Source: Podarcis tiliguerta (lineage: Eukaryota). From it: a DNA stretch of 64,000 nt. The stretch lies in the NCBI GenBank assembly GCA_965153285.1, contig OZ229112.1; one strand, written 5' to 3'. The stretch's first letter is position 1; the number at the start of each line of letters is the position of its first letter. A program made the position numbers. Shown one piece after another: positions 37,301 through 40,300 of the stretch.

Positions 37301-40300
37301 GCAATATCATTTTCCATTGAGAATTTGGCGGAAGGAAATCAGATTATACAGCAAGCAATAGATAGGTGTCATAGGAGTCAGGTCTGACAGCATTAACAGC
37401 CCAGACAGCTGATGTTATCAGCACATCTCTAAGCTACATACTAAATTGGAAGATTTAGAATGTGTATGTGCTGTTAGAGTGTGTTCTAGAGGATTTCCTG
37501 TTACACTAATTATGTCTTTCTCCCATTTTCCATCTCTTGTCAGTTCTTCCTGGGAAATCAGGTATAAACAGTGGAATGTGTTATGGAGTTCCTAGTATTC
37601 TTTTAATACGTCATCATTTCAGCTTGCAGTGGTTTGTCCTCCCCTCCCCTTTCACCCTAAGCTAATTCATTGTTGGTCAGCTACGATGCCTCTCTGGAAA
37701 TGCTTAACTGGTTTCCTTGTTTTGGGAATTGCCTTTTTTGCCTGCTGCTGCCTCATTAATGAGATTACTTTTAAGGGAACCAGATAATAGACTGCATTAA
37801 TTGGTTGTGCAAATGCCTTTGGGCATTCTTCCTGTGGTTTACACACTGGAATTGCTGTTTAGATTTTACTGTGATTCATATATGGAGTATCCTTTAAATT
37901 TCCATGCTGCATTCCACTGTAAGATGATCCAGGACCTTGCGCTTTTTAAAGCTTTTGCCAAAAACAAAAAAGGACATTCAATTAGAAATTGAATAGGGAA
38001 ATTGCATTTCCATAAAAACCATCACTGCAAATTGGGCACCATGCAGACTGCATCCCAGGTAAAGACTGCCTATTTCTGTTTTGTTTCGTGTGCAGTCCAT
38101 CATTCTTCTTGCTTCTTAGAAGTTAGTACAGTGGAACCTCGGTTGTTGAATACCTCCGTTGTCATACGTTTCGGGTTCCGAACGCCGAAAACCTGGAAGT
38201 AACTGCTCTGGTTTTCGAATGATTTTTGGAAGCTGAACGTGCTATGCGGCTTCCGTTTTGAGTTTCCCTATTGTATTGAGGGTTCAGTTTTCGGTTTTCG
38301 AACATTTCGGACGTCGAACGGTCTTCTGGAACGGATTATGTTCGAAAACCGAGGTTCCGCTGTATCATCCTTTCTTAGAATCTATTCCCTGTGGAACCTA
38401 ATAGTAAAGGAAGATTATATAGATTTTTAGAATGAGATTACTCAACATTATGCAGTGTAAAAAAATCCCATTTGTGATTTAAAGTTTCACCTACTCTGAC
38501 ATGAGTACAATAAGCTAAATTTTCCTTCTCATGCCATCCATGCTAATACATTATATAATCTTAACTTTTGCCTTTGTTTAGCCCACTTTGCTCCCAATTC
38601 TAAAGCCACTCCCATTTTGCATGATACGATGTTCTTGATTTCCTAGATGATGTAGTGAAGGGAGTTTGTTCTCCTGCTTTCTTCAGGAGGGTGGGTGTGG
38701 CTTTGCCTCAGCACCATTAAATGAATGAGACAGGAAGCACTGGAGCTGCAAGTGGCAATGTTGAAGCATTGTGCCGTCTGGAAAATGGGGAGAGAAATGT
38801 TCCACTCCCAAATGGGAGTTGGGGGACTGGGGCAGGTTGCTTACTCCTGACTGCAGCAGAGTGACACCTGAGATTAGGGATCATTTGGCACAACAGTAGT
38901 AGAAGTTAATTACCTAAATGGGCTCGGGGAAAGAAGAACTGGGGGGCAAAGGGTAAGTGCCCCAAAATATCATAACGGTGACAGATGTGGTTTCCCAAAA
39001 CGATCTCCCAGGCTTTATTGGCTCAAAGGGAAATCTCCCCAGACTTATTCAGGAGCTGCCATATATAGTGGAGCACATCCCCCCCCAAAAAAGGACCATC
39101 AGAAAATACAGTTGATGCAGCATAAAATCTTGTGAGTAAAAAAAGAAAGAAAGAAAATATTCAGCCACTAATTACTTTGGGTATTCTCAATTTGTTAACT
39201 TTATATGCTTTCCTCTTGTTTGGTTCCCAAAAGTAACATGCCTTTCTCCCTTTGCTTAAGCTGTGTCTCGGTAAGGTACATGAAAAATTAAACTCAGTTA
39301 CATGATTTGGCTGTAAAGCAAGTAGTGCTTACCTTAGCTTCTTTCCAAGGATGAAATCCAGCATTTTATTCTAGTGTGATCTTTGGGAAGAACTCCCCAT
39401 AGGTACCCACATGAAGAATCTGGTCTTACATATCACAGTAATCCGAGCTAAGAAGTGCTGAATCCCTCTGACTATTTTTTTCTCCCAGGGAACAGGGTGG
39501 CTCTAAGATCCTACCTGTAATGGGGGATCAGATACAACCTTTAAATCCCAACCAATGCAAAAGACCTCAATCTTCCATATTATCAATCCAACTCATCCAA
39601 ATCTCTTGTCCACCTACGACAAGAGATTTGGATGAGTTGGATTGATAATATGGAAGATTGAGGTCTTTTGCATTGGTTGGGATTTAAAGGTTGTAACCCT
39701 GCAGTCTGCTAGTGAGCTTTTCAGATTGCACAGTACAGTTAGAAGTGAGGCAGCCATGGCTTGTCCTGCTGTTTCTCCCCTGGTCCTGTTGTCCTTCCCT
39801 TCCTCCACTTGCTGCAATGGTCAGGCCTGCAGGTGTGCTGTGCAGCAGTTTGGGGTGAATCACAATGGCAGGAAAAGAAAAGAGCAGAACACGTTCTTAT
39901 TACAGTGGGGAATGTAAATGAGGAGAGAAGCAGGTTTGGGATATTTCCCCCTTCCCCTCTGCAGCCAACCCTCCTTTAAATCTGCTACACAGGGTTGGAC
40001 CCTCCATGGCAGATTTAGTGAGACTGTGGGGGGGTCTGCAGCGGGGAAGGGGGAAATATCCCAAACCTGTTTCTCTCCTCATTCTGCTGATGGAAACCTT
40101 ACTGCCAGCTGAGTCAGGTCTCTCAGTTACAGTCTGACAACATTAGCTATGATTCATAGCGTTTTGCAATGGTAGTGTAAGAAATCCACTGGAACTATTG
40201 GAGACACTTTATGTATTAGTGATTTGATACTAATGTCATGGAAAGGAGATTTGAAATGTGCATATAAAGAGTGAAGGAGAAACTCAGGTGGCCATCCTTA

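What the first reader, a model, noticed from the sequence alone, without database searches (positions are those of the whole stretch)
39533..39695. Perfect 78-bp/78-bp intronic palindrome with a 7-nt loop and no recognisable TE
Seen: zero mismatches over 78 bp, complex sequence, one copy in the window, inside the DST intron after the GAR microexon. Known: such palindromes extrude cruciforms and decay quickly. As pre-mRNA they are substrates for ADAR and Drosha/Dicer, and replication template switching can create them in one step. Inference: a very recent (possibly polymorphic) template-switch duplication or an actively homogenised hairpin, so a candidate nascent intronic miRNA/endo-siRNA locus. 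It begins and ends with TA, so a young TA-targeting foldback MITE is the alternative.
Basis: partly seen in the sequence, partly recalled or inferred. Interest (0 to 1): 0.75.

Follow-up and report, generated by a model that had tools for sequence, protein, structure and literature searches.

The report
Perfect 163-bp hairpin in dystonin intron
A flawless 163-base DNA palindrome really does sit deep in an intron of a dystonin-like gene, but it is one of four similar-sized hairpin elements nearby and is most likely a young hairpin-shaped mobile element, not a new microRNA gene.

Summary
Window 39533-39610 and 39618-39695 are 78-nt arms, 100% complementary, with a 7-nt loop. The sequence is complex and far beyond chance.

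It lies 3.1 kb into the 8,227-bp intron that splits the GAR/GAS2 domain of a plus-strand, dystonin-like gene.

They total 167, 167 and about 190 bp, are unrelated in sequence, and their arms are 94%, about 79% and about 80% alike. Two of them lie within 1.1 kb of the finding. One has a second partial copy in the window.

No short-loop, complex-sequence palindromes of intermediate size exist in the window. TA-flanked MITEs are frequent there.

Best reading (confidence 0.45): a young palindromic MITE-like insertion at a TA site, transcribed passively. A one-step template-switch duplication (0.25) and an assembly artefact (0.08) remain open, because no eukaryotic genome could be searched.

It fails microRNA geometry and matches no Rfam family. 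Zero mismatches only bounds arm divergence below 3.8%.

The parts
39533..39610 (.). Left arm of the perfect palindrome (78 nt). Composition A28 C25 G3 T22, strongly G-poor.
39611..39617 (.). 7-nt unpaired centre (loop), containing no G.
39618..39695 (.). Right arm (78 nt), the exact reverse complement of the left arm.
   Evidence: 0 of 78 mismatches
39533..39534 (.). Terminal TA, mirrored by TA at 39694-39695. It could be a TA target-site duplication of a Tc1/mariner-type insertion, or simply the outermost two palindromic base pairs (1 in 16 by chance).
   Evidence: Interpretation is inferred.
36439..44665 (+). Host intron (8,227 bp) of the dystonin-like gene, between the two exons that encode the GAS2/GAR domain. 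The palindrome is 3.1 kb from the donor and 5.0 kb from the acceptor.
   Evidence: (GT and AG sites read from the sequence)
36364..36438 (+).
   Evidence: (E 5.8e-7)
44666..44783 (+). Next exon, encoding GAS2 profile positions 29-68.
   Evidence: (E 1.5e-20)
39917..40083 (.). Separate, older whole-length palindrome in the same size class: 167 bp, about 79% self-complementary, 3-nt centre, GC 53%. It lies 221 bp downstream of the finding.
   Evidence: DNA fold z -12.4
40438..40627 (.). Separate, older whole-length palindrome in the same size class: about 178-190 bp, about 80% self-complementary, 11-nt loop. Its centre, including the loop, recurs at 46851-46905.
   Evidence: z -14.3
15336..15502 (.). 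Separate palindrome with the same architecture in another intron of the same gene: 80-nt arms with 5 of 80 mismatches, and a 7-nt loop. It has no TA flanks and no target-site duplication.
   Evidence: (z -20.4)

Best explanation
The 163-bp unit is a young copy of a hairpin-shaped (whole-length inverted-repeat) non-autonomous DNA element. It is a palindromic MITE of the Made1/Stowaway type that integrated at a TA dinucleotide deep in an intron of a dystonin-like gene.

It has no role in the host gene. It is transcribed passively within the pre-mRNA, where it would fold into a 78-bp perfect double-stranded stem. That stem is a likely ADAR target, a poor Drosha substrate, and at the DNA level a potential fork-stalling or cruciform site.

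Shown:
- the structure, its uniqueness within the window and its intronic position;
- the size class of similar hairpins;
- the local abundance of TA-flanked MITEs.

Inferred:
- mobility, and TA as a target-site duplication;
- all RNA-level consequences.
For: 1. It is one of four whole-length hairpins of 163, 167, 167 and about 178-190 bp in 64 kb. Their arm identities are 100%, 94%, about 79% and about 80%, so they are real, heritable features of different ages.
2. The four are unrelated in sequence. In 6 of 6 pairwise local alignments the score did not exceed the maximum of 200 shuffles. This resembles distinct MITE families.
3. One of them (40438-40627) shares its centre, including the loop, with 46851-46905 (47 of 61 identical, E 7e-7). 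Hairpin units of this size therefore are dispersed repeats in this genome.
4. There is no continuum of sizes. An ungapped scan with loops of 12 nt or less finds 5 palindromes scoring 10-11 (0.9 expected) and 1 scoring 12-13 (0.1 expected). Above that it finds only an (ATT)n run, the core of 40438-40627, and the two 80-nt-arm palindromes.
5. TA...TA ends are as expected for a Tc1/mariner-type insertion.
6. TA-flanked MITEs are frequent here. The 16-nt terminal repeat motif TACAGTGGTACCTCGG occurs 11 times at up to 3 mismatches, against 0.18 expected. That makes about five elements that share ends but not interiors (44-60% identity). A further TA-flanked element lies at 43371-43614 in the same intron.
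7. In Anolis, Tc1/Mariner non-autonomous families are numerous, often young, and unrelated to autonomous copies outside their ends (PMC3014272, passages).
8. Palindromic MITEs of this design are documented (Made1, PMC1784062, passages).
Against: - No second copy of this sequence exists in the window.
- Its ends do not resemble the Tc1-like terminal repeat that is common in the window.
- The TA ends are expected 1 time in 16 by chance for any palindrome.
- The reconstructed target site is not AT-rich. A preference of some Tc1-type elements for AT-rich sites is recalled, not tested.
- The architecturally closest palindrome (15336-15502, 80-nt arms, 7-nt loop) has no TA flanks and no 2-10-bp target-site duplication, although its arms are still 94% alike. 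At least that one does not look like a standard cut-and-paste insertion.
- Translating the element found no relatives. No protein of 31-100 aa shared words with it. Among 1.84 billion representatives there was 1 hit, a chance match to a repetitive protein. This is only weak evidence against a very high-copy family, because non-coding DNA is rarely in those sets.
- The extreme G-poverty of one arm (3 G in 78 nt; 0.2% of windows reach that skew) is unexplained by this model, as it is by the rivals.
Confidence: 0.45

Rival explanations
1. One-step inverted duplication in place, by replication template switching or fold-back priming. One arm is ancestral intron sequence. The polymerase copied it backwards after a 7-nt turn and inserted a perfect reverse-complement copy.
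For: - The arms are perfect at birth by construction, which fits 0 of 78 mismatches.
- The sequence is single-copy in the window.
- It has no recognisable terminal motif in common with the other palindromes.
- The twin-architecture palindrome 15336-15502 lacks any target-site duplication.
- Template-switch events of 28 and of up to 83 bases that create or remodel hairpins are reported, and they are enriched in introns (PMC10710096, abstract and section 5).
- A young, lineage-specific, non-transposon 180-bp palindrome is documented at human Xq27.1 (PMC6489244, passages).
- The clustering of three palindromes within 905 bp (P about 0.0024 for 4 random points) could reflect fork stalling at an older palindrome.
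Against: - No continuum of shorter complex palindromes exists in the window, although short events should dominate.
This is an inference across lineages. The length distribution is in supplements I could not see.
- The TA...TA ends have only a 1 in 16 chance under this model.
- One member of the size class is a dispersed repeat.
Confidence: 0.25
2. An older, imperfect palindrome of either origin whose arms were recently made identical by arm-to-arm correction (quasi-palindrome template switching or gene conversion).
For: Template switching between imperfect inverted-repeat arms is stated to homogenise and expand them. I saw only the opening lines of the abstracts of PMC8604942 and PMC13100816 in the search listing. 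The neighbours at 39917 and 40438 show that old palindromes persist at this spot.
Against: The three other palindromes have drifted to 94%, about 79% and about 80% identity without correction. Homogenisation is therefore not the rule here. No internal trace, such as a patchwork of corrected tracts, can be seen in a perfect palindrome.
Confidence: 0.07
3. Assembly or library artefact: the second arm is not in the animal's genome.
For: Perfect identity is what an artefact would give. Fold-back chimeras are known in some library types (recalled, not checked). No reads were available.
Against: - The palindrome is internal to 64 kb of gap-free sequence (0 N), with unique, non-palindromic flanks on both sides.
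- Three other palindromes of the same size show 6-21% arm divergence. An artefact would not produce that, so such structures do exist in this genome.
- There is no match to plasmid records or to bacterial and archaeal genomes.
Confidence: 0.08
4. Whatever its origin, the hairpin is already a functional intronic small-RNA gene (miRNA or endo-siRNA).
For: It lies in the sense-transcribed intron of a large gene. It forms a very stable RNA hairpin. Both palindromic MITEs and template-switch hairpins have given rise to miRNAs (PMC1784062, passages; PMC10710096).
Against: - The stem is 78 bp and the loop 7 nt, against a preferred stem of about 35 bp and a loop of 10 nt or more (PMC10710096 introduction).
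- There are 0 Rfam matches at gathering score in the whole window.
- At E up to 1, all 36 matches in 39300-40800 are below gathering. They go to many unrelated plant and animal families, for many of them on both strands, which is the signature of any generic hairpin.
- A single-copy perfect hairpin has no other target than itself.
- No expression data are available.
Confidence: 0.05

Closest known systems
Made1 / hsa-mir-548 type palindromic MITEs (Tc1/mariner-derived, TA target site)
   Same: The whole element is an inverted repeat with a 6-7-nt centre. It forms a very stable hairpin when transcribed, sits in transcribed regions, and has TA at both ends (Made1: two 37-bp repeats flanking 6 bp; PMC1784062, passages).
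   Different: It is twice as long (78-nt arms). No family members, parent transposon or shared terminal motif are known. Copy number is untested, whereas Made1 has 7,850 annotated copies.
Template-switch-mutation hairpins (Monttinen, Frilander and Loytynoja 2023)
   Same: Perfect base pairing for a whole hairpin is created in one event. The events are enriched in introns, and lengths up to 83 bases are reported (PMC10710096).
   Different: The defining evidence is an ancestral state without the inverted copy, and that cannot be examined here. The typical events described are much shorter (15 nt or more, example 28 nt). The window shows no companion population of shorter palindromes.
Human-specific 180-bp palindrome at Xq27.1
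   Same: A young, lineage-specific, single-locus palindrome of nearly the same size. It is prone to hairpin formation and breakage near its centre and is a hotspot for insertions (PMC6489244, passages).
   Different: That palindrome is intergenic, and its stepwise origin is documented: one half in other primates, two direct halves in chimpanzee. Here neither the origin nor any instability is documented.
Tc1/Mariner non-autonomous families of squamates (Anolis carolinensis)
   Same: These are abundant, often young, TA-targeting short elements whose interiors are unrelated to any autonomous copy (PMC3014272, passages). The window itself carries about five such elements plus one more.
   Different: Those elements have short terminal repeats and non-palindromic interiors (44-60% pairwise identity of interiors). 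The finding is palindromic along its whole length and does not share their terminal motif.

Membership tests
Palindromic MITE (Tc1/mariner-type, Made1/Stowaway-like) | Terminal inverted repeats | tested here: met
   The whole length is an inverted repeat, 78 of 78 paired. This is trivially met by any palindrome.
Palindromic MITE (Tc1/mariner-type, Made1/Stowaway-like) | TA target-site duplication flanking the element | tested here: inconclusive
   TA is present at both ends, but TA is self-complementary and so cannot be told apart from two more palindromic base pairs (1 in 16 by chance).
Palindromic MITE (Tc1/mariner-type, Made1/Stowaway-like) | Multiple dispersed copies forming a family | not testable with these tools
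   There are 0 further copies in the 64-kb window. No eukaryotic genome collection is available. Protein-level proxies were negative but weak.
Palindromic MITE (Tc1/mariner-type, Made1/Stowaway-like) | Terminal sequence shared with an autonomous transposon or a known MITE family | tested here: not met
   The ends do not match the Tc1-like terminal motif that occurs 11 times in the window. They also do not match the three other palindromes. No transposon library was available, so only in-window families were tested.
Template-switch mutation hairpin | Inverted copy of immediately adjacent sequence with a short turn | tested here: met
   The arms are adjacent and separated by 7 nt. This is met by construction.
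Template-switch mutation hairpin | Ancestral or outgroup state with only one arm at the locus | not testable with these tools
   No orthologous intron sequences could be fetched.
Template-switch mutation hairpin | Event length within the reported range | tested here: met
   The copy is 78 nt, or 85 nt with the turn. Reported lengths are 28 and up to 83 bases (PMC10710096 section 5). This is the upper edge of the range. The full distribution is in supplements that I did not see.
Canonical animal miRNA gene | Stem of about 35 bp with an apical loop of 10 nt or more | tested here: not met
   The stem is 78 bp and perfect, and the loop is 7 nt. The criterion is quoted from the introduction of PMC10710096.
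Canonical animal miRNA gene | Membership of a described miRNA family | tested here: not met
   There are 0 matches at gathering score in the window. The best sub-threshold match scores 79.5 bits against a gathering score of 100, to a plant family, on both strands.
Canonical animal miRNA gene | Discrete mature small RNAs | not testable with these tools
   No small-RNA data are available.
Fragile short-spacer palindrome (Mre11-complex-sensitive hairpin) | Hairpin loop shorter than 9 nt | tested here: met
   The loop is 7 nt. The threshold comes from yeast Alu inverted repeats (abstract of PMC8053094). Fragility itself was not tested, and the arms here are much shorter than in that system (Alu length recalled).

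The most novel reading that the evidence does not exclude
The finding, together with 15336-15502 and 39917-40083, may mark a geometry-constrained, sequence-independent process rather than a set of transposon families.

The process would make palindromic units of about 165 bp (arms about 80 nt, turn of 3-7 nt) from arbitrary sequence, without target-site duplication. An example would be fold-back self-copying of a nascent or displaced single strand of fixed length. It would recur at a hotspot in this intron.

Observations consistent with this:
- totals of 163, 167 and 167 bp;
- two identical 7-nt loops;
- no sequence similarity between the units;
- no duplication at 15336-15502;
- no intermediate sizes;
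- three units within 905 bp (P about 0.0024).

The size regularity was noticed after the fact and rests on only four cases.
Probability: 0.1. Interest if true: 0.7.

Novelty: new member of a known kind. Interest (0 to 1): 0.35.

Why it matters
As a single locus it matters little. It is a deep-intronic hairpin with no sign of a role in the dystonin-like gene.

It is a clean natural example of a perfect 78-bp-arm, short-loop palindrome. A census that allowed spacers of up to 8 bp found the longest perfect human inverted repeat to have 140-bp arms (PMC13155455, passage). That makes this locus a convenient test case for three questions:
- how such structures arise (mobile hairpin or one-step template switch);
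- how long they stay perfect;
- whether intronic perfect hairpins are edited or diced in a reptile.

The unexpected part is the local series of four unrelated hairpins of nearly equal size and different ages. If that pattern held genome-wide, it would point to an undescribed source of palindromes.

Tried and rejected
- **Known RNA family.** The whole window has 0 Rfam matches at gathering score. A permissive scan of 39300-40800 gives 36 sub-threshold matches to unrelated hairpin families, for many of them on both strands. I rejected these as generic hairpin scores.
- **Protein domains.** ORFs over the palindrome (39472-39642, 39507-39632, 39545-39658, 39636-39914) match 0 Pfam families.
- **Tandem or low-complexity origin of the G-poor arm.** TRF at minimum score 30 gives 0 rows.
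- **Relatedness of the four palindromes.** None: 6 of 6 pairs score within the shuffle range.
- **A larger composite element spanning the three clustered palindromes.** A sensitive self-comparison of 38900-41300 shows only the three self-matches plus a weak fourth self-match (40572-40613) inside the third palindrome.
- **Vector or bacterial contaminant.** There is no match in plasmids. There are 0 exact matches of a 29-nt arm piece in bacterial and archaeal genomes.
- **Copy-number proxy through translated ORFs.** No candidates in proteins of 31-100 aa. There was 1 hit among 1.84 billion representatives, a 995-aa tandem-repeat protein at 41% identity in 13 stretches. I judged it a compositional chance match.
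- **Composition break as evidence for insertion.** I first read the sharp change at both palindrome edges as favouring an inserted unit. I then rejected it as a discriminator. A G-poor arm is equally improbable under insertion and under in-situ duplication (0.2% of windows), and the edge coincidence follows automatically from the arm being G-poor.
- **G-to-A hypermutation of a cDNA as a cause of the G-poverty.** Rejected, because C is enriched as well (25 of 78) while A is not strongly so.
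Full report
**Observation.** The palindrome is exactly as described. Arms 39533-39610 and 39618-39695 are 78 nt each, with 0 of 78 mismatches, and are separated by 7 nt. It begins and ends with TA. A 32-nt piece of the arm matches only its two arm positions in the window at up to 3 mismatches, with 0.00 matches expected from 100 shuffles. Sensitive blastn of the unit and its flanks finds nothing else beyond 12-26-nt chance matches. 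As RNA it folds at -146.7 kcal/mol (z -21.8) and as DNA at -94.5 kcal/mol (z -22.9). In both cases 0 of 200 shuffles fold as well. There is no tandem repeat in the region. The window has no N.

**Gene context.** Pfam scans of single open frames place the following on the + strand:
- spectrin repeats at 475-825 (sub-threshold match to a plectin-type spectrin-repeat model), 10131-10391, 18936-19235 and 27607-27966;
- EF-hands at 35455-35667 and 35777-36190;
- a GAS2/GAR domain split between 36361-36504 (profile positions 5-34) and 44630-44788 (profile positions 29-68).

Reading the splice sites gives a 75-bp exon at 36364-36438 and an exon at 44666-44783. The palindrome therefore lies in the 8,227-bp intron 36439-44665, 3.1 kb from the donor and 5.0 kb from the acceptor. 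That is far from any splice signal.

One spectrin exon, searched alone, matches dystonin-named proteins at 81-91% identity and MACF1-named ones at 60-79%. Its best hit is a turtle protein at 94%. Only proteins of 211-2000 residues were searched. I worked exon by exon. The step of joining exons into a spliced model and searching with it was left out. I do not take the window for human. The species was not identified, and 'lacertid' stays unverified.

A reverse-strand self-comparison of the window gives four large self-complementary units:

| Unit | Total length | Arms | Loop | DNA fold z |
|---|---|---|---|---|
| 15336-15502 | 167 bp | 80 nt, 5 of 80 mismatched | 7 nt | -20.4 |
| 39533-39695 (the finding) | 163 bp | 78 nt, perfect | 7 nt | -22.9 |
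| 39917-40083 | 167 bp | about 79% self-complementary | 3 nt | -12.4 |
| 40438-40627 | about 178-190 bp | about 80% self-complementary | 11 nt | -14.3 |

- They are unrelated to one another. In 6 of 6 pairs the local alignment score is within the range of 200 shuffles.
- Three of them start within 905 bp of each other. For four random points in 64 kb this has P of about 0.0024.
- The unit at 40438 shares its centre, loop included, with 46851-46905 (47 of 61 identical, E 7e-7). It therefore belongs to a dispersed repeat.
- An ungapped scan for palindromes with loops of 12 nt or less shows no continuum of sizes. There are 5 at score 10-11 (0.9 expected from 10 Markov-1 random sequences) and 1 at score 12-13 (0.1 expected). 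Above that there are only an (ATT)n run, the core of the 40438 unit, and the two 80-nt-arm palindromes.

**Transposon background.** The window is rich in TA-flanked MITEs. A 16-nt terminal motif occurs 11 times at up to 3 mismatches, against 0.18 expected. This makes about five elements that share ends but not interiors (44-60% pairwise identity). A different TA-flanked element with 29-nt terminal repeats lies at 43371-43614 in the same intron. This matches what is described for Anolis: many young Tc1/Mariner non-autonomous families without similarity to autonomous copies (PMC3014272, passages).

**Origin.** Three readings compete.

1. *Palindromic MITE inserted at TA.*
   - For: the discrete size class, a member with a second copy, the local MITE activity and the TA ends.
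   - Against: no second copy of this sequence in the window, no shared terminal motif, and the fact that 15336-15502, its architectural twin, has neither TA flanks nor any 2-10-bp duplication.
2. *One-step template switch.* This mechanism makes perfect hairpins. Events of 28 and up to 83 bases have been reported, and they are enriched in introns (PMC10710096, abstract and sections 5 and 6). A young non-transposon 180-bp palindrome exists at human Xq27.1 (PMC6489244, passages).
   - Against: the absence of shorter companions, the high local density of 80-nt-arm palindromes, and the 1 in 16 chance of TA ends.
3. *Assembly artefact.* This is unlikely, because the older palindromes of the same size cannot be artefacts and the flanks are unique. 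Without reads it is not excluded.

I put these at 0.45, 0.25 and 0.08. Recent homogenisation of an older palindrome gets 0.07, and an undescribed geometry-constrained process about 0.10.

The deciding data are genome-wide copy number and the orthologous intron in relatives. They could not be obtained:
- no eukaryotic genome collection is offered;
- the bacterial and archaeal scan and the plasmid search were negative, as expected.

Translated-ORF proxies for copy number were also negative but have little power.

**Age.** Zero of 78 mismatches bounds arm-to-arm divergence below 3.8% at 95%. That is significantly younger than 15336-15502: the probability of 0 of 78 at 6.25% divergence is 0.0065. 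It does not force a very recent or polymorphic event. The arms contain no CpG; the single CG dinucleotide of the palindrome straddles the loop and the right arm.

**An unexplained feature.** The left arm plus loop has 3 G in 85 nt (GC skew -0.79), although the sequence is complex. Only 0.2% of 78-nt windows reach that skew, and most windows that G- or C-poor are microsatellites. The other three palindromes are not skewed. This is equally improbable under insertion and under in-situ duplication, so I do not use it to discriminate.

**RNA level.** The hairpin is in the sense pre-mRNA. By established knowledge of ADAR, a 78-bp perfect duplex carrying 50 adenosines should be edited promiscuously. 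This was not tested.

It does not look like a miRNA gene:
- The stem is 78 bp and the loop 7 nt, against the preferred stem of about 35 bp and loop of 10 nt or more (introduction of PMC10710096).
- There is no Rfam match at gathering score.
- The 36 permissive matches go to unrelated plant and animal families, for many of them on both strands.

If the sequence is single-copy, any small RNAs from it would have no target other than the locus itself. If it is a MITE family, other transcripts carrying copies would be targets, as proposed for Made1 and mir-548 (PMC1784062, passages).

**DNA level.** In yeast, attack on hairpins by the Mre11 complex is limited to loops shorter than 9 nt (abstract of PMC8053094). 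The 7-nt loop falls in that range, but the arms here are far shorter than the Alu repeats used there (Alu length recalled). The Xq27.1 palindrome shows that a unit of this size can be a rearrangement hotspot. The local cluster of three palindromes is compatible with such a hotspot or with a preferred insertion site. I cannot tell which.

**Papers: what I saw.**
- PMC10710096: abstract, part of the introduction, and sections 5 and 6.
- PMC1784062, PMC6489244, PMC13155455 and PMC3014272: passages found by term search.
- PMC8053094: abstract.
- PMC8604942 and PMC13100816: only the opening lines of the abstracts in the search listing.

The length distribution of template-switch events (datasets of PMC10710096) and the table of the longest human inverted repeats (PMC13155455) could bear on the size argument, and I did not see them.

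**Verdict.** The structure is real and striking but is probably of an ordinary kind. It is most likely a young hairpin-shaped mobile element, and less likely a one-step template-switch duplication, lying inertly deep in an intron. The more interesting lead is the series of four equal-sized, unrelated hairpins of different ages.

Noticed in passing
window 15336-15502: A second palindrome with the same architecture as the finding: 80-nt arms with 5 of 80 mismatches and a 7-nt loop. It is unrelated in sequence, lies in an upstream intron of the same gene, and has no TA flanks or target-site duplication.
   Followed up: partly
window 39917-40083 and 40438-40627: Two older whole-length palindromes (167 bp and about 190 bp, about 79-80% self-complementary) lie within 1.1 kb downstream of the finding. 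Three of the window's four large palindromes are clustered (P about 0.0024).
   Followed up: partly
window 46851-46905: A partial second copy of the centre, including the loop, of the 40438-40627 palindrome (47 of 61 identical). This indicates a dispersed hairpin-element family. The copy itself folds only weakly (z -2.1).
   Followed up: partly
window 36036-36280, 38127-38364, 53978-54613, 57698-57916, 59198-59452: About five TA-flanked MITEs share a 16-nt terminal motif (11 hits against 0.18 expected) but have dissimilar interiors (44-60% identity). They look like Tc1/mariner-type non-autonomous elements.
   Followed up: partly
window 43371-43614: Another TA-flanked short element with 29-nt terminal inverted repeats (86% complementary) lies in the same intron as the finding.
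   Followed up: no
window 39533-39617: The left arm plus loop is extremely G-poor (3 G in 85 nt) yet complex. Only 0.2% of 78-nt windows are as skewed. This is unexplained.
   Followed up: partly
window 30023-30096, 34299-34352, 42608-42656: Microsatellites: (TTTTC)15, (TC)27 and an AT-only trinucleotide run that is itself self-complementary.
   Followed up: no
window 36609-36855: An inverted repeat with 46-nt arms (76% complementary, 155 nt apart) lies just downstream of the 75-bp GAR exon. It is possibly another old MITE.
   Followed up: no
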